9,708 bases of DNA from a virus. Both the position numbers and the translations under genes were made by a program. The notes beneath the pieces are model-generated. The model saw only the letters and a program-made list of their open reading frames with translations, made no database searches and was not told the DNA's origin. Numbering within the stretch: the stretch's first letter is position 1; the number at the start of each line of letters is the position of its first letter. Shown in pieces: positions 1 through 9,708 of this stretch. The stretch lies in UHGV virus genome UHGV-0797466, one strand, 5' to 3'.

Positions 1-13
1 GCCAGGAGGACCC

Positions 14-38
14 GTAAAAAAGCCGGATTGCTCCGGCT
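14..38 (-). terminator. Rho-independent terminator downstream of the SSB gene
   Basis: Hairpin AGCCGGA (21-27) / TCCGGCT (32-38) with a 4-nt loop; the A-run at 16-21 is a U-run on the minus-strand transcript. It lies 16 nt past the SSB stop at 54-56. The same block (about 85% identical) recurs at 8751-8775. Confidence 0.6.
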
Positions 39-53
39 TCTGTCACTCGTCGC

Positions 54-476
54 TTAAAACGGTATGTTATCCCCGTACGGATCATCATTCCCCGCCTGTT
101 GTTTTGCCCTGTTCAGCGCGTCAGTAGCCTGGCCCTGTTGACCTTTTTTGCCGCCCAGTCGCGCCGTTCGCGCACTGATTACACTGTCTGCGATAACCTG
201 CCAGCCCTGCCGCGTTTCTCCGTTCTGCCCAGTCCACTGGCTGATCTGCATGTTACCCGCCACGCTCAGGAGTTCACCCTTGCGGTGCCTTTCCAGTGCT
301 TCGGCCTGTCTGCCAAATGCCAGGACGGATAACCACATCGTCGCCGTTCCGTCATCTGCCTGGCTGCACGGAAGGGGGACCGCCATACGCGCCAGCGTCA
401 TCGGTGTGCCCTTGCTGGTCTGTTTTACCTGCGGGTCGTCCACCAGCCGCCCGTAAGCGGCTATCTGTGCTGTCAT
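54..476 (-). CDS. ssb: Single-stranded DNA-binding protein (SSB, OB-fold) of phage/plasmid type
   Basis: 140-aa ORF. The core resembles E. coli SSB as remembered (TMWLSVLAFGRQAEALERHRKGELLSVAGNMQISQWTGQNGETRQ vs [42 protein letters not shown]). It has a Gly/Gln-rich linker and an acidic tail ending DNIPF (E. coli SSB ends DDDIPF). ATG at 474-476 overlaps the upstream stop (ATGA); SD-like GGAGAGGTGG lies upstream. Confidence 0.85.
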   Translation of the reverse strand: MTAQIAAYGRLVDDPQVKQTSKGTPMTLARMAVPLPCSQADDGTATMWLSVLAFGRQAEALERHRKGELLSVAGNMQISQWTGQNGETRQGWQVIADSVISARTARLGGKKGQQGQATDALNRAKQQAGNDDPYGDNIPF

Positions 477-751
477 GATTCCACCTCTCCGGTTTTAACG
501 TTGATGGTTGTTACCTGTTCCGCTTCGGCAATCTCCCGTTCTGTCAGCGTGGCAAAGTTTGCCGCCGTCGTGGTCATGAATGCGCTTATCAGTTCGGGAT
601 GTGCTTTCGCGTATCCTTCCCCCGCGTGGCGGTCTATCGTTCTGATTGCCACCTTTAAAGCGTGCTCTGTCATGTCTAACGCGCGATATTTCGGTTCTGT
701 TCTGTCTCTGCGTTTTTTGAGTGATTTATTAAATTTCCCTGAAGTGTGCAT
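473..751 (-). CDS. Hypothetical small basic protein (92 aa) between the origin and ssb
   Basis: ATG at 749-751 preceded by SD-like GAGGGGG (762-768, about 10-nt spacer). Stop overlaps the ssb start. Lysine/arginine-rich N-terminus. No family recognised. Confidence 0.5.
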   Translation of the reverse strand: MHTSGKFNKSLKKRRDRTEPKYRALDMTEHALKVAIRTIDRHAGEGYAKAHPELISAFMTTTAANFATLTEREIAEAEQVTTINVKTGEVES

Positions 752-801
752 ATTTATTTTTACCCCCTCGTTTAAAAAGTTTTGAGTTGTGCCTCCCCTT
801 G

Positions 802-1026
802 TCTACCTTATCTACCTTAGTGGCCCTCATGCCAGTAATGGCGCGGCTTTCAGCGGGGTAGAGTGCTTTTATCCACTATCTACCCCGTGTCTACCTCCCT
901 GTCTGACTCAGGTAAAATCAGGTAGAGAGGGTAGATAGTGGGTAGACAGTAAAAAAAAGCTATCTACCTAACTTAATGCACTGAATTAAATGTATTTTTC
1001 TTTACTCAGGTAGACAGGGTAGACAG
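802..1026. repeat. Iteron field, putative replication origin
   Basis: At least 11 copies of the hexamer core TCTACC / GGTAGA in about 225 bp: TCTACC at 802, 811, 879, 890, 963; GGTAGA at 857, 921, 930, 941, 1009, 1018. Extended form GGTAGACAG appears three times. An A8 tract (951-958) and an AT-rich stretch (971-1003) are embedded. It sits directly downstream of the primase/helicase gene, as P4 ori/crr iterons sit near alpha. Confidence 0.7.
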
Positions 1027-1039
1027 CAATTACAAAAAA

Positions 1040-2794
1040 TTATAAAAACGCGTCGCACTCGTCTGTTGTTATTGCGTTAGTCTGCGTTACTCCCTTAACT
1101 TTCCGCGTAATATATTCATGTCCGTAAACTTTCGCGGCTGGCTTCATAGCCTTGCCAAAGTCATTTACGTTTAGCGGTTTGCTCCTGCCTGCGTACGCCA
1201 TAAACGCCAGATAGACGCGGTAAAGGCTGTTTCTGGTCGTGTACTTCACTGAATCGCCACCGCCGCCCATCATCAGGCCGCGTGCTTCCTCCAGAAAATT
1301 CAGGAACTGGCAAAACTCAATAACCGGATCCGTCTGTTGCTTTATTGCCAGTGCTTCATCACCGTCACGCTGTTCCAGTAGTAAAGCCCGTGCTTTCTCA
1401 GAGTCGGTAAAGTTCGCCAGCAATCGGCGGATAATGACAGGGATTTCAGCCGCAATCTTTTCCGGTAGCTCCCTGTCTTTTTCGGCCTCACTGACGATAT
1501 TGTCGAAACGGAAAATCACGCGACGACGTGCCACACCTCCGGCCCGTTCGGTGAATATCATCGGGTTGTTGTTGGTCGCCAGCACCACCGCCCTGATTAC
1601 CGCCGTAAAACGCTTTTCATATTTCGGGTTAATTTCCACGGGGTCACCGCCCGTGATTTTCTTGATGCCCGTTCCTTCGCCTGTATATTTCGGCTGGTCA
1701 GCCAGGACGATAAGACGACTCCCGACAACCTGCGCACGTCCACCAGCATCATCAAGCGATGTCATTTCAGCGCTTACCGTGTTCTGTTTCCCTGCCAGAA
1801 GGCTGGCTATGTGCGTGAATGTACTTTTACCGCTCCCGCCGTCTCCGGTGGCCTCAATAAACATCTGCCAGTCGTACCGGTTCGCCATAATCATGTACAG
1901 CGCGGCACATATACGCATCATCTTGCGCGGGTCTTTTCCGGCTGCGTGCTTAAGCCATTTATGAAAGTTTGGCGCGTTATCGCGGATGTTCTCCCCTGGT
2001 GCTGGTGGCGTGTACTCAATGCCGTTGTTCGTGGTGATCCAGTTCTCCGGCGTGTGCGGGGAAAATTCCCCCGTTTTCAGGTCAAGCGCACCATTGGCGA
2101 ACGGCAGCAAATCGCCGGACGGCTCGCCCATTGGTTCGGCAATAACTTTTAACGCTTCCACGGCGTTATTGATTACGCGCTTGCTGAAAGTGGCCCTGTG
2201 CTCTGAATAGATCGCCACCATTTCGCGGCTAAGTTCCATTGTGCTGACCGGACACCATACCCCGCCGCGCCATACGTGAACGATTTCACTTTCAGGATGT
2301 ACGCAAACGCCATCAAAGCGATCGGCAAGCAGCTGCGCGCGCTCACTGTCCGCCATCTGCGAAAGTTGCGCCTTTTGCTTTACCGGAAGCTCAATGACCA
2401 GACCATCAGAAAGATTCTGGCGCTCACGGGCCAGATATTCGCGCCAGTTCTCCACCTTCTGACCGTGCATACCATCAGGGTAAAAATTTGCATCCTGAAT
2501 ATCTGCCGCCGCCAGCTTCTGACCAATCTTTTTGGTCTCCACTAAATCCAGTTCTCCGGCCTGGTACAGCCTTACGCGCTTTTTCCCATCCGGAACAATT
2601 TTCAGCGCATCAAGTTCGGCAAGCTGATTTGGCCCAAGCCACACAGGCGGCACATTATCGCCGGATGCGGGGCCGTCCTGCTCCTGCCACTGTTTTGCAT
2701 GTGACCACGCATCACTACCCGCGAAAATAATTACCTCTGTGTCTTTGTGTTTTATTCCGCGTGGTTGTTTTTTTACGTTCGGTGCCAGTTTCAT
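1040..2794 (-). CDS. P4 alpha-like primase/helicase (phage/plasmid primase with P-loop NTPase domain)
   Basis: 584-aa ORF with Walker A motif GDGGSGKST. General resemblance to P4-family primase C-terminal / D5-type NTPase proteins. ATG at 2792-2794 overlaps the upstream stop (ATGA); SD-like CAGGGGT lies 5 nt upstream. An iteron field lies immediately downstream. Confidence 0.85.
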   Translation of the reverse strand: MKLAPNVKKQPRGIKHKDTEVIIFAGSDAWSHAKQWQEQDGPASGDNVPPVWLGPNQLAELDALKIVPDGKKRVRLYQAGELDLVETKKIGQKLAAADIQDANFYPDGMHGQKVENWREYLARERQNLSDGLVIELPVKQKAQLSQMADSERAQLLADRFDGVCVHPESEIVHVWRGGVWCPVSTMELSREMVAIYSEHRATFSKRVINNAVEALKVIAEPMGEPSGDLLPFANGALDLKTGEFSPHTPENWITTNNGIEYTPPAPGENIRDNAPNFHKWLKHAAGKDPRKMMRICAALYMIMANRYDWQMFIEATGDGGSGKSTFTHIASLLAGKQNTVSAEMTSLDDAGGRAQVVGSRLIVLADQPKYTGEGTGIKKITGGDPVEINPKYEKRFTAVIRAVVLATNNNPMIFTERAGGVARRRVIFRFDNIVSEAEKDRELPEKIAAEIPVIIRRLLANFTDSEKARALLLEQRDGDEALAIKQQTDPVIEFCQFLNFLEEARGLMMGGGGDSVKYTTRNSLYRVYLAFMAYAGRSKPLNVNDFGKAMKPAAKVYGHEYITRKVKGVTQTNAITTDECDAFL

Positions 2795-3090
2795 TTCTTA
2801 CCCCTGAATACGTTAAGCATCTTTTTTATTTCCTGAATATTGGCGCGTGCTTTCTCCCTGCTGGTGGGCACGTTACGCGGTACGGCCTGCACCAGAGAAA
2901 AATCACGATCGAACTGATAAACAGGCATCACGCAATCATATTCGTAGCCTTCACGACGGTAGGTTACGCGCCGTTCCTCCACGCCCTTAATCATTACCGT
3001 GCCGCCGTACTGGTCGCGGTAAATATCACCGCGCATGAATTTAGTGCGAGTTTTGCCACTGGCAGTTAAGCCAGAATATTTAAGTTTCAT
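2791..3090 (-). CDS. Hypothetical protein (99 aa), translationally coupled to the primase gene
   Basis: ATG at 3088-3090 with GGAGAA 8 nt upstream. Stop overlaps the primase start. No family recognised. Confidence 0.6.
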   Translation of the reverse strand: MKLKYSGLTASGKTRTKFMRGDIYRDQYGGTVMIKGVEERRVTYRREGYEYDCVMPVYQFDRDFSLVQAVPRNVPTSREKARANIQEIKKMLNVFRGKK

Positions 3091-3095
3091 TATTT

Positions 3096-3326
3096 TTATT
3101 CTCCGGTGTGGAGCGCTTTATTATTCTCGTGAATTGCCATAGCCTTATTGAGTTCATCAATAACAGGTGTCAATAATGTCTGAACAGCGGCAAACATTAA
3201 TGATGAATGATCTTCGCCACCTTCCGGCACTTCAATTAATTTAATTAACAACGCATTCATTTCGCGTGCTTTAATTAATGCGTTTTCAGAGTGGATTAAT
3301 ACTTCAAAAGGGATTTTATGCATCAC
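3096..3326 (-). CDS. Hypothetical small protein (76 aa) in the AT-rich island
   Basis: Starts ATGATG at 3321-3326 with AGGGAGA 7 nt upstream. Overlaps the upstream gene by 11 nt. Sequence is visibly AT-rich. Confidence 0.5.
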   Translation of the reverse strand: MMHKIPFEVLIHSENALIKAREMNALLIKLIEVPEGGEDHSSLMFAAVQTLLTPVIDELNKAMAIHENNKALHTGE

Positions 3327-3546
3327 AAATTTTCTCCCTTATTCTTTTAATGTCCTCATTAAGGATGTCTGTAACTTTTATCAGCGAGTTTTTGGCAATT
3401 ATTTTTATTGTTTTAAGTTTTCTTTTGTCGTGCTCCGACTGTGATTTTCTCTCCATAATCTCCACCATGTGGGTAACATCAACGAGCGCACGTATCAGTA
3501 TTTGCATTGCTTCTTCTGCTGCGTCCGGTGTGGTTTTATTGCACAT
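3316..3546 (-). CDS. Hypothetical small protein (76 aa) in the AT-rich island
   Basis: ATG at 3544-3546 with strong SD GGAGGGG 3-5 nt upstream. Overlaps the 3' end of the 89-aa ORF in another frame. Charged, probably helical. Confidence 0.5.
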   Translation of the reverse strand: MCNKTTPDAAEEAMQILIRALVDVTHMVEIMERKSQSEHDKRKLKTIKIIAKNSLIKVTDILNEDIKRIREKICDA

Positions 3547-3764
3547 GTACCCCTCCGCATTTTTTCGTTAGAAATAAGCGTTCTTCTTTCCTGTTCATCG
3601 CTCAGGAATACGCAGACCTCACCGCTAAGGCGTTTAAGTAAGCCGATGATTGCCCCTGATTCGCTGTCGGTCATCATGCCAGGGTAATCCTCTGCCAGTG
3701 CGCAAATAACTTCGATTTGGTGGGCGCGTTCTGCTGCCTGTTGTAGTGTGATTTCCTGACTCAT
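3495..3764 (-). CDS. Hypothetical protein (89 aa)
   Basis: ATG at 3762-3764 overlaps the stop of the upstream Icd-like gene (ATGA). The C-terminal about 17 aa overlap the next ORF, so the true 3' end is uncertain. Confidence 0.45.
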   Translation of the reverse strand: MSQEITLQQAAERAHQIEVICALAEDYPGMMTDSESGAIIGLLKRLSGEVCVFLSDEQERRTLISNEKMRRGTCAIKPHRTQQKKQCKY

Positions 3765-4222
3765 AAGCCTACCCCCTGACGAATACGGGCGACAAAAATC
3801 AGATGTGCGTGCGGCAGCTGTGCACGTGCTTCGCGCTCAGTGGCAGCGGTAACGGTGAATATTGCAATGCTGTCTGTCAGGCACTGCATAAAGCGCCAGA
3901 CAAAATAAGGGCGTGCGGATACAGCCATGTGAAAGGCTCCCAGATGAATTTTAAGGAGTCTCGCTACTACGCTGTCAAACATGGTGGCGAGACGTAACAG
4001 GGTTGACAGACTGGTCATCTGGAAACCAGCGAGCACAAAGGCTCCCCCGTTACGCCCCGCCATAATGCGGGTATGGGTAGGTTTACGGACACAAAAAAAC
4101 CGCTTATCGGATGTGGGCGGCTGTCCGCCAGATGTATTCAGGCTGTCAAACCCGGTCGCCATGTGGGCGACGGGGGAAGCATACAGCCCCGTGATAATTT
4201 TTTGCAAGCGGTTTTTACGCAT
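3761..4222 (-). CDS. Ash/Icd-like protein (153 aa) with C-terminal Icd-like motif
   Basis: C-terminus TEREARAQLPHAHLIFVARIRQG matches the remembered Icd-like motif (SE.EAR ... LSFAAR). ATG at 4220-4222 overlaps the upstream stop (cATGcgTAA); SD-like AGGGG lies 7 nt upstream. An internal start at 3928 (GGGAG SD) is an alternative. Confidence 0.6.
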   Translation of the reverse strand: MRKNRLQKIITGLYASPVAHMATGFDSLNTSGGQPPTSDKRFFCVRKPTHTRIMAGRNGGAFVLAGFQMTSLSTLLRLATMFDSVVARLLKIHLGAFHMAVSARPYFVWRFMQCLTDSIAIFTVTAATEREARAQLPHAHLIFVARIRQGVGL

Positions 4223-4418
4223 GATATGACCCCTGGCGAATACGGGCAGCGAATACCATCACGCAGCCAGCCGGAGATTGCTGACGCGCTTCCTGTTCGC
4301 TGGTGGCCTCGATGGTAATCACGCGCGGTTGTGCCGTGCTCAGGGCGATAAAACGCCAGATGTATTTATTCAGGTTGTACGAGTCCCGCCCTTGCGGGTG
4401 TCTGGTATAATTTCTCAT
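4215..4418 (-). CDS. Host cell division inhibitor Icd-like small protein (67 aa)
   Basis: This is the C-terminal 67 codons of the 382-aa ORF in the track; the rest is judged spurious. ATG at 4416-4418 with GAGG 5 nt upstream. C-terminus SEQEARQQSPAGCVMVFAARIRQG is paralogous to the next gene and fits the Icd-like motif. Confidence 0.6.
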   Translation of the reverse strand: MRNYTRHPQGRDSYNLNKYIWRFIALSTAQPRVITIEATSEQEARQQSPAGCVMVFAARIRQGSYHA

Positions 4419-4439
4419 AGCTACCTCGATACTTTCGCT

Positions 4440-4614
4440 ATCGTTGGTGGTTAGAAGCCCTGCATGTGTTCCAGCACTGCGGGGCTTTGCTGTACATACA
4501 CCACAATCATTAGTGTGTGTACAGATTAAATTTAAGTGCGCTACAGTGTCAAGTGTTTTATTTACACACCTTTTGGTGTAATGTATGCACACCTCAAAAT
4601 AACCGGACATTCTG
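4440..4614. promoter_or_regulatory. Divergent promoter/operator region between the leftward operon and the RHH gene
   Basis: Lies between divergent starts at 4418 (-) and 4615 (+). Imperfect 9-bp-stem hairpin AAGCCCTGC (4453-4461) / GCGGGGCTT (4478-4486). Palindromic motif TTACAC...GTGTAA / ACACC-TTTT-GGTGT at 4561-4580 and related TACATACACC at 4492-4501. Decamer AACCGGACAT at 4600-4609. Confidence 0.5.
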
Positions 4615-4920
4615 ATGGCAACAGGAAATATCAACAGCAGATCGCAAATGAAAAATATCCGCTTCCCCCATGATGTAATCGAGGAAATGGAAAATTCGAA
4701 AACGGAAGGGGAAACAATAGCCGCTTTCGTGATTACAGCCGTTCGCGGTGAGATCGCCCGCCGCCAGGCAGAAGGAAGCGGAGAAAATCCCCTGGTTTCT
4801 TCGCTCGATGCACTGGCGCAGGTGGAAAAAATCGGAGTCAAAGCAGCCGAGGAGATCGGGCAACTCATCACCGTCGCGCGTGAAGAACTCCAGCGTCGCA
4901 AGGCCAAAGAGCAGGAGTGA
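4615..4920 (+). CDS. Arc/Mnt-like ribbon-helix-helix DNA-binding protein, candidate satellite repressor
   Basis: Segment KNIRFPHDVIEEMEN aligns with the P22 Arc N-terminus as remembered (FNLRWPREVLDLVRK), followed by a helical, charged C-terminal extension. It is the only convincing plus-strand gene, divergent from the main operon, and followed by a strong terminator. Start could be M1 (4615) or M12 (4648); neither has a strong SD. Confidence 0.65.
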   Translation: MATGNINSRSQMKNIRFPHDVIEEMENSKTEGETIAAFVITAVRGEIARRQAEGSGENPLVSSLDALAQVEKIGVKAAEEIGQLITVAREELQRRKAKEQE

Positions 4921-4962
4921 CCATCACCAGCGCCGTGGTGTAAGGTATTACGGCGCATTGCT

Positions 4963-5151
4963 ATGCAGGACAACACAATGACCGATAAAGAATTGACCAA
5001 AACATTATCACCGGCACGGAAAAGACGGCGCAGAAAGATAGAGCATGAATCAGAAAGATTCGCGCCATGTGCTTTTGCCCTTGAGCAATTCCTTAAAGAG
5101 TACAGGGAAAAGCGCTCATTGCAGGTATGGCAACGAACTGAACCAGACTGA
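4963..5151 (+). CDS. Possible small basic protein (62 aa) downstream of the RHH gene
   Basis: ORF in the same frame as the RHH gene, separated from it by a single TGA (4918-4920). No convincing SD. It fills most of the gap before the terminator. Weak call. Confidence 0.3.
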   Translation: MQDNTMTDKELTKTLSPARKRRRRKIEHESERFAPCAFALEQFLKEYREKRSLQVWQRTEPD

Positions 5152-5246
5152 TTGCATTGCCCACCAGCCTGATAACGGCTATCATCCCCGTGCTTATGTT
5201 TGGGATCACACACACAAACGGCGCAGCGGGTTATCTGTTCAGAAAG

Positions 5247-5274
5247 GCGGCTCCATTTCGGGGCCGCTTTTTTT
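5247..5274 (+). terminator. Rho-independent terminator ending the rightward (RHH) transcription unit
   Basis: 8-bp stem GCGGCTCC (5247-5254) / GGGGCCGC (5260-5267) with one G-U pair, loop ATTTC, followed by T7 (5268-5274). Confidence 0.75.
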
Positions 5275-5396
5275 ATACCTGAAAAACCCCAATTTTGTTG
5301 TTTTTCAGTTTCACCAGGGCGAACGAATCCCCGCCCACGTTCTGGCGTATATTCAATCTTCATGGTTATAGCTCTGTGTTCAGATGATTGATGTGT

Positions 5397-5413
5397 GGCG
5401 GCTGCGTGCCGCC
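5397..5413 (-). other. GC-rich hairpin just 3' of alpA
   Basis: Perfect 6-bp stem GGCGGC / GCCGCC with loop TGCGT, 8 nt past the alpA stop. No U-run follows on the minus strand, so it is not a canonical terminator. Confidence 0.3.
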
Positions 5414-5420
5414 AGCGTGA

Positions 5421-5609
5421 TTAATGAACTGCCTTGCAGCTATCCTTCCAGGCCAGAACCTCGGATAAAGACCAGCCAACGGAACGACCGCCAAGTTTAC
5501 GACGTGATGGGAATTGTCCGGCCTTTTCCAGGCGGTAGCGACACGTACGGCTAAGGCCGGTTAGTTTTTCGCATTCTTTTTCACGTATAAACCGATCAGT
5601 GCTTAACAC
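5421..5609 (-). CDS. alpA: AlpA-family HTH regulator (excisionase-like)
   Basis: C-terminal part LTGLSRTCRYRLEKAGQFPSRRKLGGRSVGWSLSEVLAWK resembles the AlpA family (ITGLS...YRL...G.FP....LG.R.VGW...E...W). The track ORF (5421-5690) starts at TTG. I prefer the GTG at 5607-5609, which has a strong SD (GGGGGG, 5-nt spacer) and gives 62 aa, the usual AlpA size. Confidence 0.75.
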   Translation of the reverse strand: MLSTDRFIREKECEKLTGLSRTCRYRLEKAGQFPSRRKLGGRSVGWSLSEVLAWKDSCKAVH

Positions 5610-5760
5610 TATTGCCCCCCTTTCGTTTCTTAAAGAGTCATCAGGTGTCTTATTGTGTCGTATTGTTCCCGCTAGAGTGATGAATGGCAAATACTGAGGA
5701 TATATGATTTACAGAAAATGAAACAGTAAGAATAAAATCTTTTAAATTCATGTTAATACA

Positions 5761-5791
5761 AAGGCATAAAATATTGTTCCATGCCTTTTTT
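5761..5791. terminator. Hairpin with flanking T-run in the int-alpA intergenic region
   Basis: Stem AAGGCAT (5761-5767) / ATGCCTT (5781-5787), 13-nt loop, T6 at 5786-5791 on the plus strand. The minus-strand side is moderately U-rich. Could terminate int read-through; modest confidence. Confidence 0.35.
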
Positions 5792-5880
5792 CTCGCTCTT
5801 TAAAGAGTGATTCGCTAGTGTACAAAAAACCAGTAACACATTAAAAATCAGCTACTTATAAATCCGTACGCTTTTTCGCC

Positions 5881-5930
5881 TCTTGTTCGTAGTTGTTCCA
5901 CATTGTTGCTCATTGTTGCACGTTGTATCT
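5881..5930. repeat. Five 10-bp-phased TTGTT repeats just 3' of int
   Basis: Decamers tcTTGTTcgt, agTTGTTcca, caTTGTTgct, caTTGTTgca, cgTTGTatct begin at 5881, 5891, 5901, 5911, 5921, in exact 10-bp register. Confidence 0.5.
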
Positions 5931-5974
5931 GTTCGCATATCCAGTATGCGCATACTGAAAAAACACGAAAAAAA

Positions 5975-7204
5975 TTATTTTCTTCTGGCTACGGGTAGCG
6001 TGGTTACGTTTTCATGTGTTCCCGCCAGTATCCCTAACCGCTCCGTCCACATATCCAGCGCATTGCGTTTCGCATCCAGATAACGGGAATGATTATAAAC
6101 TCGCTGCATTCCTGGCATCTGGTGGCCTGTAAGCTGCTCCACGACATGCGGATCAACGCCTAAATCGTTCAGCATGGTTGTAAAGGTGCGCCGGATGTCA
6201 TGCAGTGACCAGTGAGGGTGATTAAGCCTCCTGTGCGCTAATCTTCCATACTGCGATACGCTGGCCTCCTGTTTCACTTCCCCCAGCAATAAGCCCGTGT
6301 GCCTGTTCTGCTCCACCAGCTGCGTGACGAACGGCAGGATCGCTTCCGGTATGGGCCGGAATATTGCGACCTTCGTTTTGCTGTGCTCCTTCGGAACGGT
6401 CCATAGCATTTCCGTAAAATCCCACTCCCCGATCTCCGATAACCTCAGTTCTACCGTTCTGGCTCCGAAGACAATCAGGAGGCGGATTAACGCGACGTAG
6501 TAAGGGGAGAATATTTTTTTGTCCAGTGCCTGCAATAATTCGCCAAGTTCTTTGTTACTTAAGACACGTTCGCTTATATCCGGTTTTTTCCCAACGTCCG
6601 CCACGTTCAGATCGTCCAGAACGTTGCTGATTGCATAGCGCCGCCTACGGCAGAACTTAAGCGCCTGTTTGCACGCCTGTAGCACGAATCCGGCAGTAAC
6701 AGGCGTTCGCTTTGCCACCTGGTCAAAACAGGCCAGCCAGTGCCGTAGCTCGCATTTATCCAGCGGCATAGCACCAATCTGCTGTATTACGTGATTATTA
6801 AGTCGCCTTTTCAGGGCGATATAATCCACGCGGTTTTCCTTTACGTAATACTCAAGCCAGTAGGTGAGCGCATCGCCAACCGTTACGGGCTTTAACGCTT
6901 CCTGTACGGTGTAATTCATCTCATGACGTGGATTTTTCCCCTCAGCCAGCCATGTGCGACACTGTGCGGCTTTTTCCCTGGCTGCTTTCAGGCTCAGATC
7001 AGGATAACTTCCCAGCTTAATGCGTTCGGGTCGTGTCTCCCTTCCCGTTCCGGCCCTGTATGTGAAATACCAGGTCAATTTCCCTGATGTTAAATATTTC
7101 ACGCTCAGGTTTCCGCCATCACTATAAAACGTGTTTTTCTCCGCTGGCTTACCATGAAGTTTCCTTAGCAAGGTATCGCTCAGTTTGTTCATTGCTCTGC
7201 TCAC
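5975..7204 (-). CDS. int: Tyrosine recombinase, P4-like integrase
   Basis: 409-aa ORF. N-terminal arm-binding-like region (SDGGNLSVKYLTSGKLTWYFTYR ... KLGSYPDLSLKAAREKAAQ) resembles P4-family integrases. C-terminal catalytic region contains HDIRRT and a Tyr near the end (RVYNHSRYL). GTG at 7202-7204 with SD GAGGGGG 6 nt upstream; an in-frame ATG at 7192 is an alternative. Confidence 0.9.
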   Translation of the reverse strand: MSRAMNKLSDTLLRKLHGKPAEKNTFYSDGGNLSVKYLTSGKLTWYFTYRAGTGRETRPERIKLGSYPDLSLKAAREKAAQCRTWLAEGKNPRHEMNYTVQEALKPVTVGDALTYWLEYYVKENRVDYIALKRRLNNHVIQQIGAMPLDKCELRHWLACFDQVAKRTPVTAGFVLQACKQALKFCRRRRYAISNVLDDLNVADVGKKPDISERVLSNKELGELLQALDKKIFSPYYVALIRLLIVFGARTVELRLSEIGEWDFTEMLWTVPKEHSKTKVAIFRPIPEAILPFVTQLVEQNRHTGLLLGEVKQEASVSQYGRLAHRRLNHPHWSLHDIRRTFTTMLNDLGVDPHVVEQLTGHQMPGMQRVYNHSRYLDAKRNALDMWTERLGILAGTHENVTTLPVARRK

Positions 7205-7228
7205 GTTTTACCCCCTCTTTACGAAAAA

Positions 7229-7620
7229 GTGACTACACCAGTGACTACACCGTTCGGTGCACTGTATAGAAACAACGTGGAACAAATAGACACAAGAAAT
7301 ATACAGGCGGGTCATCTTTCCAGGGGGAAGCGCGCTAATTCATGAGGGGCGTTAATGTTGATATGGGGATCCCCATAACGGGGCTACCGGATTTTTTTCC
7401 GGTTTAACTGTTAATCAGGCTGGTGGGCTTTACCTGTTTTGTAGGAGTGGTCATTATGACCATTCAGACAATGACCTTAATCAGAACTTTTCGCTAAAAA
7501 ATGACGTTGGTCACGTCGTCCGGAAAGCACAAAATCCCGTCAATTTTTAATTAACGGTTAAACCGTCTTTTGTCACGGCGTGTCACTGGTTGTCACTCTC
7601 CGTCACGGTATGTCGCTACT
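7229..7620. other. attP-like region: arm-type repeats on both sides of a palindrome-rich central segment
   Basis: Tandem 12-bp repeat GTGACTACACC(A/G) at 7229-7240 and 7241-7252, 25 bp upstream of int. Five 10-bp-phased repeats at 7571-7620 (TGTCACggcg, TGTCACtggt, TGTCACtctc, cGTCACggta, TGTCgCtact). GTCAC is the reverse complement of GTGAC, and GTCACT resembles the lambda Int arm-site core (AGTCACTAT) as remembered. Between them: perfect palindromes TATGGGGATCCCCATA (7362-7377) and GGTCATTATGACC (7449-7461), and a hairpin at 7386-7403. Confidence 0.5.
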
Positions 7621-7622
7621 CG

Positions 7623-7904
7623 TTAACGCCGTAACCGCTCCGGCTTCTTCCAGTGGTACGTAATTTTCTCCGTTTCCCGATACAGTGCCACGCGGCGATT
7701 GTAGGCCAGCATTTCAAGAACGCGGATCCGTATGTTGCGCATATCCACATCATTAAGCTGGATACCATCACGGCGCATCACCTCAGCAACCACACGCGCG
7801 TAATTTTCGGCGGTCACGCTGTCCGGCTGCGTGGCCTGTTCGTCATGCTGCTGGCTGATTCCGGTAACGCGGCGGATTAATCCCAGTAGTTCGGCTTCTG
7901 TCAT
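7623..7904 (-). CDS. Hypothetical protein (93 aa) between cos and the att region
   Basis: The track ORF (7623-8102) would run across the cos site. The internal ATG at 7902-7904 (MTEAELLGLIRR...) has an SD-like GGGGG upstream and leaves cos intact. No family recognised. Confidence 0.5.
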   Translation of the reverse strand: MTEAELLGLIRRVTGISQQHDEQATQPDSVTAENYARVVAEVMRRDGIQLNDVDMRNIRIRVLEMLAYNRRVALYRETEKITYHWKKPERLRR

Positions 7905-7938
7905 TGTGCCCCCATCGCTCTGATAGTCTGGTGTCGTC

Positions 7939-8116
7939 GGGTCCTTCCTGGAATTATGGCCCGTTACGGGGCGGCGACCTCGCGCGTTTTCACTATTTAT
8001 GAAAATTTTTCGGGATCCATGTCCGGTTTCTCTGCAAGTTAACCATATGAAAAATATAAAAACATGCTTTCCATGAACCGGACATGCGCAAAAAACAGAC
8101 ACTAAAACCGGACATC
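7939..8116 (+). other. Lambda-type cos site (cosQ-like flank, cosN, cosB-like repeats), plus-strand orientation
   Basis: 7969-7980 is GGGCGGCGACCT, the lambda 12-nt cohesive end as remembered. The flanks resemble the lambda left end (CGCGcGTTTTCaCTATTTATGAAAATTTTtCGG) and right end (GGGTCCTTcC..GG..CGTTACG). cosB-like repeats follow: ATGTCCGGTT (8019-8028, inverted), AACCGGACAT (8076-8085), AACCGGACAT (8106-8115), with an AT-rich spacer that could be an IHF site. Confidence 0.75.
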
Positions 8117-8183
8117 GAACCAGTTAACCGAAAGTGTGCACAAATCACATGCATTGCTGCGAGTGATTAACAAGTTATCGGCT

Positions 8184-8618
8184 TTACTGTTCTGTATCGG
8201 CTGATTGCTCCATGCTGGCACGGCGAACGCTTATGGCATGACGCCACCCAGCCAGAAAGCCAGCCATTTTATTTCGTGCCTTGCTCACATCTTCCGGTGA
8301 ATAGCCGTAAATCTGCAAACCTTCATCAAATCGATGTTCTGTTTCTTCACTGGAGTACTCGTCACGCTCAGATGAAAGCAGCCTGGCAAACATAATTTTT
8401 TCCAGCGCACTGGTTTCTACGTGATATCTGATGGTCTCAAGACGGCTTTTACCTGAAGACCAAAGCAATGTATGCCCGATGTGATAACCGCCAGACTTTC
8501 CGCGATCCGCATTAAGATACGGCATCCCCTGTTTGGTCCATGCGCGAATAGTGGTTCTGTTAACCTTGAAATGTTCAGCTATTTCCTGCTGACTTACAAA
8601 ACAAGCTTTATCAATCAT
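8184..8618 (-). CDS. Nu1-like terminase small subunit homolog (winged-HTH); candidate Rpp-type packaging redirector
   Basis: N-terminus VSQQEIAEHFKVNRTTIRAWTKQGMPY aligns with lambda gpNu1 (VNKKQLADIFGASIRTIQNWQEQGMPV) as remembered. 144 aa. ATG at 8616-8618 with AAGGT SD. No terminase large subunit follows, which fits a satellite TerS-like protein rather than a phage terminase operon. Confidence 0.8.
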   Translation of the reverse strand: MIDKACFVSQQEIAEHFKVNRTTIRAWTKQGMPYLNADRGKSGGYHIGHTLLWSSGKSRLETIRYHVETSALEKIMFARLLSSERDEYSSEETEHRFDEGLQIYGYSPEDVSKARNKMAGFLAGWRHAISVRRASMEQSADTEQ

Positions 8619-8685
8619 AATGTTACCTTAACTGCATGGTTAAATATTAATCAAGTGGTGGTGGTGTCACCTTCACGGAAAAACG

Positions 8686-8750
8686 TCATAAATAGCGAAA
8701 ACCCGCGAGGTCGCCGCCCCGTAACGGGTCCATAATTCCAGGAAGGACCC
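8686..8750 (-). other. Second lambda-type cosQ-cosN module, inverted relative to 7939-8003, upstream of the Nu1-like gene
   Basis: The reverse complement of 8686-8750 reads GGGTCCTTCCTGGAATTATGGACCCGTTACGGGGCGGCGACCTCGCGGGTTTTCGCTATTTATGA. cosN is at 8708-8719 on the minus strand. The 22 nt after cosN match lambda exactly as remembered. No AACCGGACAT repeats lie between this cosN and the gene start. Confidence 0.7.
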
Positions 8751-8775
8751 GTAAAAAAGCCGGATTTCTCCGGCC
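8751..8775 (-). terminator. Rho-independent terminator downstream of the 137-aa gene, abutting the cosQ-like flank
   Basis: Hairpin GCCGGA (8759-8764) / TCCGGC (8769-8774) with loop TTTC; the A-run at 8753-8758 is a U-run on the minus-strand RNA. It lies 7 nt past the stop at 8781-8783 and is paralogous to the terminator at 14-38. Confidence 0.6.
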
Positions 8776-8780
8776 TTGTC

Positions 8781-9194
8781 TCAGATGGTTTTCAGTATGC
8801 GATCGATGTCGCCGTCATCGCCCTGGTTTCTGCCATCGTATGCCATGCCAGCTGATACGGCTTGCGGGCTGTGCATGTCCATAAAGTTTTCAAAGGCTGC
8901 GGTAAGTTCCGGCGCAACCTTCGGACGTTCCTGCTCTATGGTCATGCTAAGGATGCTTTTAGCCGTACCAACATCGATACAAGGCACGTTTGCCATTGCA
9001 CGCAACAGCGGCTGATAGTCTTTATGCTCATGAAGCGCCATAATCGCATCAGCGCGCGGCTTGTCCTGCTCTTCCAGTTTGTTTAGTTGATATACGGCCT
9101 CATAGGTTGATAAACCTCTGTCAGCCATTGCCCGCGCTTCGGCTTTAAATTTACTCGCCAGCGGTAGCGTCATGATGCTTTCATTCGTTGCCAT
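8781..9194 (-). CDS. Hypothetical protein (137 aa) between the gpD-like gene and cos
   Basis: ATG at 9192-9194 with AGGGGGA SD. Acidic C-terminal region. No family recognised. A capsid-related role is suggested by position only. Confidence 0.55.
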   Translation of the reverse strand: MATNESIMTLPLASKFKAEARAMADRGLSTYEAVYQLNKLEEQDKPRADAIMALHEHKDYQPLLRAMANVPCIDVGTAKSILSMTIEQERPKVAPELTAAFENFMDMHSPQAVSAGMAYDGRNQGDDGDIDRILKTI

Positions 9195-9206
9195 CGTTCC
9201 CCCTGC

Positions 9207-9542
9207 TTATCGGGCCAGCGGCTGAACGGATACGCCGGAACCCGCAAAGGCGGCGCATTTTTTCGCATCGGTGTCGACGCTCTCAGGCCAGTTAACGGCG
9301 GCAATATTGAATATCCCCGTCTTGTAACACTGTGCTGATTTCTGCTTTGACGTGTCCACAGGGTACGAGGTCAGATAAACAGCCTTGCCAGATTCCTTAC
9401 CATCCCACGGCTTAAACTCGCCATTGTCCGCCAGCATCAGCGGGGTAAATTCCTGAATAACGCCAGCATCAGCGGCAAAATGTACCAGCGTCGTGGCGAC
9501 CTGCTGACTGCCTGCAAATAACTCAATGTATGGAGTGTCCAT
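9207..9542 (-). CDS. Head decoration protein, lambda gpD-like
   Basis: 111 aa. TPLMLADNGEFKPWDG ... YKTGIFNIAAVNWPESVDTDAKKCAAFAGSGVSV matches lambda gpD as remembered (TPLMLDTSSRKLVAWDG ... [35 protein letters not shown]). ATG at 9540-9542. Confidence 0.8.
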   Translation of the reverse strand: MDTPYIELFAGSQQVATTLVHFAADAGVIQEFTPLMLADNGEFKPWDGKESGKAVYLTSYPVDTSKQKSAQCYKTGIFNIAAVNWPESVDTDAKKCAAFAGSGVSVQPLAR

Positions 9543-9553
9543 AGAATCCCCCG

Positions 9554-9708
9554 TTAACCAATTTTGACGGTAACAAATTTGCGAATATCTGCCGGAACCG
9601 GCTGCGGTGCGCTGTGCGTCTGCACGTACTCAATCGCCGGATCGCCGTCCTCAATCCAGTTTTTCGGGTAAAAAATGGTCCGAGCAGGATAAAGACATGC
9701 ACGACCCA
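9554..9708 (-). CDS. 3' end of an upstream ORF running off the window (possibly scaffold/protease-like by synteny with lambda Nu3/C before D)
   Basis: Open minus-strand frame ending at TAA (9554-9556). Hand-translated C-terminus: ...WIEDGDPAIEYVQTHSAPQPVPADIRKFVTVKIG. Function is inferred from position only. Confidence 0.35.
   Translation of the reverse strand, partial: GRACLYPARTIFYPKNWIEDGDPAIEYVQTHSAPQPVPADIRKFVTVKIG

What the first reader, a model, noticed from the sequence alone, without database searches (positions are those of the whole stretch)
4600..8115. Decamer AACCGGACAT: cosB-like triad plus a fourth copy at the start of the repressor-like gene
The exact 10-mer AACCGGACAT occurs at 8076-8085 and 8106-8115 and inverted at 8019-8028. 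These sit 38 to 135 bp past cosN with an AT-rich spacer, a geometry that mirrors lambda cosB (R3, I1, R2, R1) as remembered, but with a different motif. A fourth exact copy lies at 4600-4609, 5 bp before the ATG of the Arc-like gene. A given 10-mer is expected about 0.02 times by chance on both strands of 9.7 kb, so four copies are not chance. If the Nu1-like protein binds this motif, it may also control the repressor gene and couple packaging to the regulatory switch. Alternatively another factor such as the RHH protein or AlpA binds both loci.
Basis: partly seen in the sequence, partly recalled or inferred. Interest (0 to 1): 0.65.

Follow-up and report, generated by a model that had tools for sequence, protein, structure and literature searches.

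The report
Helper-phage cosB copied into a satellite
The three clustered decamers are the terminase-docking repeats of a common E. coli prophage packaging site that this phage satellite has copied as its second cos site, while the fourth copy in front of the regulator gene looks like a coincidence.

Summary

The window is an EcCICFT073-type cos PICI in its excised, attP-joined form. The 'Nu1-like' 144-aa protein is RppA (142/144 identical). The triad lies in the published 'cos2' site.

The triad is a real cosB, but a helper phage's. From cosQ to the last base of the third decamer, cos2 is about 98% identical to the cos of PhiR12 phages. The same cosB class occurs in lambdoid prophages of about 21% of complete E. 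coli genomes. There it sits about 49 bp upstream of one conserved small terminase (WP_000235436.1).

Related satellites carry other phage cosB classes in the same slot (phage-21 type, or a GGTTGTTGT type).

The fourth copy occurs only in one shallow allele of the YlcI/YnfO gene. It sits where homologues have their Shine-Dalgarno sequence, and it does not co-occur with the triad. The proposed coupling of packaging to regulation is unsupported.

The new points are modest: the cos2 repeats now have an identity, and cos2 behaves as a helper-matched cassette.

The parts
7938..7968 (+). cosQ-side arm of cos2 (GGGTCCTTCC...GTTACG).
   Evidence: Part of the inverted repeat with 8727-8751. Aligns with phage cos left arms. 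Equals the published EcCICFT073 cos2.
7969..7980 (+). cosN of cos2: the lambda-type 12-nt cohesive end GGGCGGCGACCT.
   Evidence: Read directly. Invariant in the alignment with phage and prophage cos sites.
8019..8028 (-). R3-equivalent decamer (ATGTCCGGTT on the + strand), bp 51-60 from cosN.
   Evidence: Exact match. Invariant in 30 distinct ungapped phage cosB variants and in all indel variants. Same position as lambda R3 (bp 49-64).
8029..8075 (.). AT-rich spacer (70% A+T) in the position of lambda I1.
   Evidence: No IHF consensus at up to 1 mismatch. The substitutions among phages sit in its right-hand end, next to R2.
8076..8085 (+). R2-equivalent decamer, inverted relative to R3.
   Evidence: Conserved apart from single-base variants in a few phages.
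8106..8115 (+). R1-equivalent decamer. Homology between the satellite and the phage cos ends exactly at 8115.
   Evidence: Alignment A1. In phages it is the left half of the near-palindrome AAACCGGACATGACCGGTTT. Phage variants L022 and L026 also diverge right after it.
   Evidence: 142/144 identical to CFT073 RppA. E 4.5e-31 to RppC structure 6hlk. R21, T22, T23 and W27 are present.
8673..8751 (-). cos1: a second, inverted cos site (cosN 8708-8719 on the minus strand). Its cosB runs into the rppA start. The R3-PICI proposed by Murialdo and Feiss maps to about 8655-8672.
   Evidence: Inverted repeats I1 and I2. Equals the published EcCICFT073 cos1. This is the RppA-responsive site. R3-PICI proposal.
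4601..4610 (+). Fourth exact decamer, 4 nt upstream of the ATG of the YlcI/YnfO-family gene. It occupies the ribosome-binding-site position.
   Evidence: Homologues carry GAGGAG, AGAGGA, GGAGGT or TAGGAG at the same place. Restricted to one allele.
4615..4920 (+). YlcI/YnfO-family (RHH-like) regulator gene, 101 aa.
   Evidence: NCBIfam NF041551, E 8e-18. RefSeq annotation in L002.
7222..7262 (.). 41-bp att core. The window joins the integrase end to the cos2 end, which is the attP (excised) form.
   Evidence: BLAST of the window against the integrated copy L002.

Best explanation
The window is an EcCICFT073-family cos PICI, a phage satellite. It carries two inverted lambda-type cos sites on either side of rppA.

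The decamer triad is the cosB of the site published as cos2. It is a nearly exact copy, from cosQ through cosN to the last base of the third repeat, of the cos of a widespread class of lambdoid E. coli prophages. These prophages encode one conserved small terminase, WP_000235436.1, here called TerS-X.

By analogy with lambda gpNu1 at R3/R2/R1, the decamers are inferred to be the sites where TerS-X dimers dock, across an AT-rich bendable spacer. Docking would position the large terminase to nick cosN 38 nt away.

In the satellite this would make cos2 a helper-matched packaging site, usable directly by TerS-X helpers without Rpp. Cos1, with its satellite-specific cosB, is used through the RppA-TerS heterocomplex with lambda-, phi80- and 21-type helpers.

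The fourth decamer at 4601 is not part of this system. It is a chance match that falls on the ribosome-binding region of one allele of the YlcI/YnfO regulator gene.

Shown here or in published work: sequence identity with the phage cosB, linkage of that cosB to TerS-X, the cassette variation, the identity of RppA, the RppA preference for cos1, and the lack of conservation or co-occurrence of the fourth copy.

Inferred only: TerS-X binding to the decamers, and Rpp-independent packaging from cos2.
For: (1) Window 7990-8115 is 98.4% identical to the Rz-Nu1 intergenic region of phages PhiR12_1, _2, _2_star, _4 and _5. There the third decamer ends 48 nt (about 49 bp) before the terS start.

(2) The same cosB class is present in 1185 of 5426 complete E. 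coli genomes. In four prophages sampled at 84-91% cosB identity it lies 49 bp upstream of the identical terminase small subunit WP_000235436.1.

(3) All 77 IMG/VR TerS-X loci with enough upstream sequence carry a cosB of this class. R3 is invariant. R2 and R1 show only single-base variants, and one contig (L087) has them fused by a 30-bp deletion. Substitutions cluster around R2 and between R2 and R1.

(4) Homology between satellite and phage stops exactly after the third decamer. Phage variants L022 and L026 also diverge at that point.

(5) Related satellites keep the same left flank and cosN but carry a phage-21-type cosB (L135, L136, L139) or a GGTTGTTGT-repeat cosB (L108, L138, L146). The latter matches prophage cos sites upstream of a different TerS, with the repeats as the most conserved islands at 76% identity.

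(6) The published cos2 sequence of EcCICFT073 contains the three decamers. RppA boosts transfer only through the cos1 cosB (PMC6739421). RppA and TerS-X show no significant similarity.

(7) About 45 of 64 genomes with this PICI-type cos2 also hold a TerS-X prophage, against about 21% of other genomes. The naive Fisher p is 8e-18.

(8) Fourth copy: only 9 of 80 RHH-gene relatives have it, and all nine belong to the 98-100% identity clade. The triad is present in 1 of those 9 loci and about 7 of the other 71; at least two of those seven triads (L137, L153) sit next to a full-length TerS-X gene, so they belong to a neighbouring prophage rather than to a satellite cos2. The 042 and CFT073 PICIs have the triad without the fourth copy. 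The 55989 and 4314 satellites have the fourth copy but no triad in the 18 kb examined.
Against: No binding or packaging data exist for TerS-X.

The repeat orientation (R3 one way, R2 and R1 both the other way) differs from lambda and 21.

No IHF consensus was found in the spacer.

The satellite copy lacks the right half of the phage's palindromic R1.

With lambda and phi80, deleting cos2 increased transfer (PMC6092414). Cos2 can therefore be a cost rather than a benefit with those helpers.

The co-occurrence statistic is not corrected for clonal relatedness.

An exact 10-mer 4 nt before a regulator's ATG is only a 2% chance event. A second 11-mer (ATGAAAAATAT) is shared between the cos2 spacer (8047) and the RHH gene (4648).
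Confidence: 0.72

Rival explanations
1. The island's own Nu1-like protein (RppA) binds the decamer at cos2 and again at 4601. This would couple packaging to control of the RHH regulator gene.
For: RppA has a TerS-like winged-HTH DNA-binding domain (PMC6739421). The decamer recurs exactly in front of the regulator gene.
Against: CosB-swap and plasmid-transfer experiments show that RppA acts through the cosB of cos1, not cos2. The triad co-varies with a different protein, TerS-X, in more than 1000 prophages that have no rpp. The fourth copy and the triad are not associated among relatives.
Confidence: 0.03
2. The helper's small terminase (TerS-X) also binds the single decamer at 4601. It would repress or modulate the YlcI/YnfO gene, so the satellite senses late gene expression of a cognate helper.
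For: Exact 10-mer, about a 2% chance event. It lies 4 nt from the start codon of a switch-region gene. Seventy percent of genomes with this cos2 hold a TerS-X prophage.
Against: The copy is confined to one shallow allele clade. It occupies the position that is a Shine-Dalgarno sequence in 71 homologues. Most carriers of this allele have no triad in the sequence held. In lambda, single R sites bind gpNu1 weakly (established knowledge). The box conserved across alleles is the ACAC(A)CC motif just upstream, not the decamer.
Confidence: 0.05
3. Cos2 is a functionless or mildly harmful scar of recombination between the satellite and TerS-X phages at their shared cosQ-cosN sequence. It is not an adaptive second packaging site.
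For: Natural recombinants exist: L108 has a TerS-X cos and the first 9 TerS-X codons fused to Rpp residues 78-144. Deleting cos2 raises transfer by lambda and phi80. The satellite copy lacks the right half of the phage R1 palindrome.
Against: A complete R3-spacer-R2-R1 set is kept in each of three different cassette classes. This cos2 is 89-100% identical across the 60 of 64 genomes listed. It is enriched in genomes with the cognate prophage.
Confidence: 0.2

Closest known systems
cos2 of the E. coli PICI EcCICFT073 (Fillol-Salom et al. 2018 ISME J, PMC6092414; 2019 Mol Cell, PMC6739421)
   Same: Same element family and architecture: a 93-aa ORF, cos2, rppA, cos1, a 137-aa ORF, decoration and capsid genes, primase, YlcI/YnfO, AlpA and integrase. 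RppA is 142/144 identical. The published cos2 sequence contains the same three decamers.
   Different: A different integration site (tqsA rather than the phoQ-roxA interval) and a different YlcI/YnfO allele. Only this allele carries the fourth decamer. The papers called the PICI cosB regions 'completely divergent' from phage cosB and did not identify the repeats or a matching phage.
Lambda cosB (R3-I1-R2-R1 bound by gpNu1 and IHF)
   Same: Three copies of one motif start about 50 bp from cosN, with an AT-rich spacer after the first. In phages they lie directly upstream of the small-terminase gene.
   Different: The motif differs (ATGTCCGGTT against CGTTTCCNTTCT). R2 and R1 share one orientation, whereas in lambda R3 and R1 do. 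R2-R1 spacing is 30 bp. No IHF consensus was found. The TerS-X N-terminus does not match the Pfam Nu1 profile (only residues 49-150 match).
Phage 21 / CFT073 phi4 cosB (R consensus about CATGTCGGNCCT)
   Same: Both share the CATGTC core and the overall layout. A 21-type cosB occupies the cos2 slot in sister satellites.
   Different: The 3' half of the motif differs, and so does the TerS (MKVNKKRLAEIF... against VATQTEVARHLS...).
Rpp-specific cosB of cos1 (R3-PICI proposed by Murialdo and Feiss 2022, PMC9026076)
   Same: It also lies next to a lambda-type cosN in the same island.
   Different: It has a single proposed site with a GGTGACACCACC-type sequence. It is recognised by the RppA-TerS heterocomplex and contains no decamers.

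Membership tests
Lambdoid cosB (R-element array) | Lies next to cosN, with the first repeat about 50 bp from the nick site. | tested here: met
   cosN is at 7969-7980 and the first decamer at bp 51-60. The register is the same in the phages.
Lambdoid cosB (R-element array) | Three copies of one motif, conserved among phages that share a TerS. | tested here: met
   All 77 TerS-X loci with enough upstream sequence carry the array, with single-base variants at R2 or R1 in several and one R2/R1 deletion variant (L087). R3 is invariant. Prophages at 84-91% cosB identity keep the decamers.
Lambdoid cosB (R-element array) | R2 inverted relative to both R3 and R1. | tested here: not met
   R3 is in one orientation and both R2 and R1 are in the other. 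In most phages R1 is a near-palindrome that also offers the R3 orientation, but the satellite copy lacks that half.
Lambdoid cosB (R-element array) | An IHF site (I1) between R3 and R2. | tested here: inconclusive
   No WATCAANNNNTTR match at up to 1 mismatch in 8029-8075. The spacer is 70% A+T with A-tracts.
Lambdoid cosB (R-element array) | Immediately upstream of the cognate small-terminase gene. | tested here: met
   Met in phages and prophages, about 49 bp before TerS-X. In the satellite the array is instead followed by the 3' end of convergent rppA.
Lambdoid cosB (R-element array) | Specific binding by the small terminase. | not testable with these tools
   Needs an EMSA or footprint with TerS-X.
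EcCICFT073-type cos PICI, site cos2 | RppA-type gene flanked by two inverted lambda-type cos sites, with sequence identity to the published cos2. | tested here: met
Rpp-responsive PICI cosB (cos1 type) | The cosB through which RppA-TerS stimulates packaging. | tested here: not met
   The triad maps to cos2. The published swap shows that only the cos1 cosB responds to RppA.
Operator of the YlcI/YnfO (RHH) switch (fourth copy) | Conserved in front of homologous regulator genes. | tested here: not met
   Present in 9 of 80 loci, all from the 98-100% identity allele. The other alleles have a Shine-Dalgarno sequence there.

The most novel reading that the evidence does not exclude
The single decamer at 4601 is a working docking site for the helper's small terminase (TerS-X). 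The site overlaps the ribosome-binding and leader region of the satellite's YlcI/YnfO switch gene. This allele of the satellite would then read out late gene expression of a cognate helper and couple its regulatory switch to packaging. That would be a phage terminase subunit acting as a transcription or translation regulator of a satellite.
Probability: 0.04. Interest if true: 0.75.

Novelty: new member of a known kind. Interest (0 to 1): 0.38.

Why it matters
Fillol-Salom et al. (2019) asked why some PICIs carry two different cos sites, and described both PICI cosB regions as unrelated to phage cosB.

The evidence here gives a concrete, testable answer for cos2. It is an authentic helper-phage cosB, swapped as a cassette among at least three specificity classes. 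Cos1 remains the Rpp-dependent site. If that is right, these satellites hedge between two routes. One redirects lambda-, phi80- and 21-type terminases with Rpp. The other presents a native cos to TerS-X-type helpers, which reside in about a fifth of E. coli genomes.

The analysis also defines a further lambdoid packaging-specificity motif, ATGTCCGGTT, alongside the lambda, 21 and N15/Monarch classes.

It removes an attractive but unsupported idea, that packaging and the regulatory switch are coupled through this motif.

Tried and rejected
- Searched the literature for the decamer strings and 'PhiR12'. No relevant paper was found. A search for cosB plus PICI from 2020 onward found no follow-up on cos2.
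- Scanned 4150-4700 for sigma-70 promoters. No consensus promoter was found, so the position of the fourth copy relative to a transcription start could not be set.
- Scanned for an IHF consensus. None lies in the R3-R2 spacer.
- Searched the phage collection with the third cassette class. There was no hit, but it was found in prophages of the E. coli genomes.
- Looked for the second triad site of CFT073 in the icd-adjacent prophage. That prophage is phi4, with a 21-type cosB and no decamers. The TerS-X prophage of CFT073 was not located.
- Considered that the RHH protein or AlpA binds both loci. Rejected because the triad travels with TerS-X in prophages, and because the fourth copy is not conserved in homologous switch regions.
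- Considered that the fourth copy arose by recombination with a cosB. There is no flanking homology beyond the 10-mer, and the shared 11-mer at 4648 is not colinear with cos2.
Full report
**Observation.** The exact 10-mer AACCGGACAT occurs four times in the window. The sites are 4601-4610 (+), 8019-8028 (-), 8076-8085 (+) and 8106-8115 (+). None of 200 dinucleotide-preserving shuffles reached four copies. The lambda cohesive-end sequence GGGCGGCGACCT is at 7969-7980. The spacer after the first copy is 70% A+T.

**What the window is.** The ORFs and family searches give the following genes:
- SSB
- a D5/P4-type primase
- a YlcI/YnfO-family RHH-like gene (4615-4920)
- AlpA
- a tyrosine integrase
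- a 144-aa HTH protein (8184-8618, minus strand)
- a gpD-like decoration protein

The same element is integrated in tqsA in E. coli 042 and in strain 300033, where the 7900-8760 query is 100% identical.

Relative to the integrated copy, the window is the attP-joined form:
- Bases 1-7262 map to the SSB-to-integrase side.
- Bases 7222-9677 map to the opposite end.
- The two parts overlap in a 41-bp att core.

The 144-aa protein matches the solved RppC structure (6hlk, E 4.5e-31). It is 142/144 identical to RppA of the model island EcCICFT073, which has the same gene order.

**Two cos sites.** A second lambda-type cos lies inverted at 8673-8751, so rppA is bracketed by two cos sites. Figure S1A of Fillol-Salom et al. 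2019 prints both sites for EcCICFT073.
- 'cos1' is the copy that runs into the rppA start. In the window this is the minus-strand site.
- 'cos2' is the copy that contains ATGTCCGGTT...AACCGGACAT...AACCGGACAT.

The published experiments therefore apply directly to the triad.
- RppA raises transfer of cos1 plasmids.
- In cosB swaps, only the cos1 cosB confers the RppA response.
- The RppA R21A/T22A mutant loses that stimulation.
- Deleting cos1 reduces island transfer by lambda and phi80, whereas deleting cos2 increases it.

**What the triad is.** Window 7990-8115 is 98.4% identical to five Escherichia phages, PhiR12_1, _2, _2_star, _4 and _5. In these phages the block lies between Rz and the Nu1/terS gene. 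The layout there is:
- cosQ, then cosN
- 38 nt
- ATGTCCGGTT
- a 47-nt AT-rich spacer
- AACCGGACAT
- 20 nt
- AACCGGACAT, overlapping ATGACCGGTT
- about 49 bp
- the terS start

The same cosB class is found in 1185 of 5426 complete E. coli genomes. Four prophages were sampled at 84-91% cosB identity, including one from O157:H7 EDL933. In each, the cosB is followed at the same distance by an identical small terminase, WP_000235436.1 (169 aa). Only its C-terminal part matches Pfam Phage_Nu1. I call this protein TerS-X.

Of 80 IMG/VR loci encoding TerS-X, 77 had at least 240 nt of upstream sequence, and all 77 carry a cosB of this class.
- R3 is invariant.
- Substitutions cluster around R2 and between R2 and R1.
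- Several contigs have a single-base change in R2 or R1.
- One contig has R2 and R1 fused by a 30-bp deletion.
- Two contigs diverge immediately after the third decamer.

Homology between the satellite and the phages also ends exactly after the third decamer.

**The cos2 slot is a cassette.** Sister satellites were recovered through the RHH protein. They keep the same left flank and cosN but carry different cosB modules:
- the decamer class (window, L097, L116, L148);
- a phage-21-type cosB (L135, L136, L139), compared with CFT073 phi4;
- a third class with three GGTTGTTGT repeats (L108, L138, L146).

The third class matches prophage cos sites upstream of a different small terminase. At 76% identity, the repeats there are the most conserved islands. 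This pattern, together with the TerS-X linkage, is why I read the decamers as R elements of one lambdoid packaging-specificity class. I read cos2 as a helper-type cos site.

**Co-occurrence with TerS-X prophages.** The triad occupies 1910 places in 1185 genomes. The phage-specific R1-terS junction occupies 1845 places in 1166 genomes. About 65 sites in 64 genomes are therefore satellite cos2 sites. About 45 of those 64 genomes also hold a TerS-X prophage, and 44 of the 60 listed have at least two places. Among the other genomes the figure is about 21%. The naive Fisher p is 8e-18, with no correction for clonal relatedness.

**The fourth copy.** I examined 80 loci encoding relatives of the RHH protein at 71-100% identity.
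- The decamer precedes the ATG only in the nine loci with 98-100% identity.
- The other 71 have GAGGAG, AGAGGA, GGAGGT or TAGGAG at that position. The decamer therefore sits where the Shine-Dalgarno sequence normally is.
- The feature conserved across alleles is an ACAC(A)CC box just upstream.

The triad is present in 1 of the 9 loci with the fourth copy and in about 7 of the 71 without it. At least two of those seven triads (L137, L153) lie next to a full-length TerS-X gene, so they belong to a neighbouring prophage rather than to a satellite cos2.
- The 042 and CFT073 islands have the triad but no fourth copy.
- The 55989 and 4314 satellites have the fourth copy but no triad in the 18 kb examined.

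Taken alone, the fourth copy is about a 2% chance event (0.018 expected by base composition). Other 10- and 11-mers of the cosB region also recur elsewhere in the window. I conclude it is most likely coincidental. A role as a single TerS-X site is not excluded, but nothing supports it.

**Mechanism.**
- Shown, here or in published work: the identity and arrangement of the sites, linkage of the triad to TerS-X, the cassette variation, the RppA preference for cos1, and the independence of the fourth copy.
- Inferred by analogy with lambda gpNu1/cosB: TerS-X dimers bind the decamers across a bendable AT-rich spacer and position TerL at cosN. Cos2 would then let TerS-X helpers package the island without Rpp.

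**Departures from the lambda paradigm.**
- R2 and R1 share one orientation.
- No IHF consensus lies in the spacer.
- The satellite copy lacks the right half of the phage's palindromic R1.

**Novelty.** The cos2 sequence and its weak function with lambda and phi80 are published. Three points were not found in the papers held:
- recognition of its repeats;
- its match to an abundant prophage cosB/TerS class;
- the cassette nature of the slot.

This is a new member of a known kind, a further lambdoid cosB specificity. It also offers a plausible answer to an open question about PICIs with two cos sites.

Noticed in passing
window 7938-8015 and 8673-8751: Two lambda-type cos sites in inverted orientation bracket rppA (56 nt at 88% plus 25 nt at 96% complementarity). 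They correspond to the published cos2 and cos1 of EcCICFT073. The finding mentioned only one cosN.
   Followed up: yes
window 7222-7262; 9666-9708: The window is the excised, attP-joined form of an island that sits in tqsA in E. coli genomes, with a 41-bp att core overlap. Its last 43 nt are an inverted fragment of the major capsid gene (L002 18186-18144). That suggests a fold-back or an assembly artefact at the contig end.
   Followed up: partly
L108 1380-1860 (IMGVR_UViG_2718217885_000003): A natural phage-satellite recombinant. A complete decamer-class phage cos and the first 9 codons of TerS-X are fused in frame to Rpp residues 78-144, replacing cos1 and the Rpp DNA-binding domain. The cos2 slot of this island holds the GGTTGTTGT class.
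   Followed up: partly
L087 (IMGVR_UViG_2675903621_000013), upstream of terS: A phage cosB variant in which R2 and R1 are fused by a 30-bp deletion between the two direct decamers. This resembles the unequal-crossover route proposed for the simple cosB of N15.
   Followed up: no
window 8047-8057 and 4648-4658: The 11-mer ATGAAAAATAT is shared between the cos2 spacer and the 5' part of the YlcI/YnfO gene, where it encodes M-K-N-I. It lies 38 nt downstream of the fourth decamer. It is not colinear with cos2 and is probably a coincidence, but it is a second match between the same two short regions.
   Followed up: partly
L007 1034-1258, L010 1058-1258, L171 1079-1264: Lambdoid prophages of two cosB classes carry a YlcI/YnfO-family gene on the opposite strand about 200-250 bp upstream of cosN. 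The same family supplies the switch-region gene of the satellites. The role of this family next to cos is unknown.
   Followed up: no
window 4495-4596: Repeated ACAC(A)CC boxes, including the inverted pair ACACC-TTTT-GGTGT at 4566-4579, lie just upstream of the fourth decamer. Similar boxes precede homologous RHH genes in other alleles. They are a likelier operator than the decamer.
   Followed up: partly
window 7-37 and 8744-8774: A 31-nt direct repeat (97%) made of AGGACCCG plus a GC-rich hairpin (AAAAAGCCGGA...TCCGGC). One copy abuts the cosQ side of cos1 and the other lies downstream of the SSB gene. It may be a terminator or a remnant of a third cos arm.
   Followed up: no
window 9207-9542 and beyond; L172 13196-14598: This island family, including EcCICFT073 itself in RefSeq, encodes a gpD-like head decoration protein and an HK97-type major capsid protein. 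The 2018 paper describes EcCICFT073 as lacking capsid morphogenesis genes.
   Followed up: no
L091, L102, L106, L135, L139 and others: Many sister satellites encode a protein 40-52% identical to the C-terminal two thirds of TerS-X next to a cosN. In some of them two inverted cos sites flank that gene. They may be further Rpp-like or true TerS proteins.
   Followed up: no
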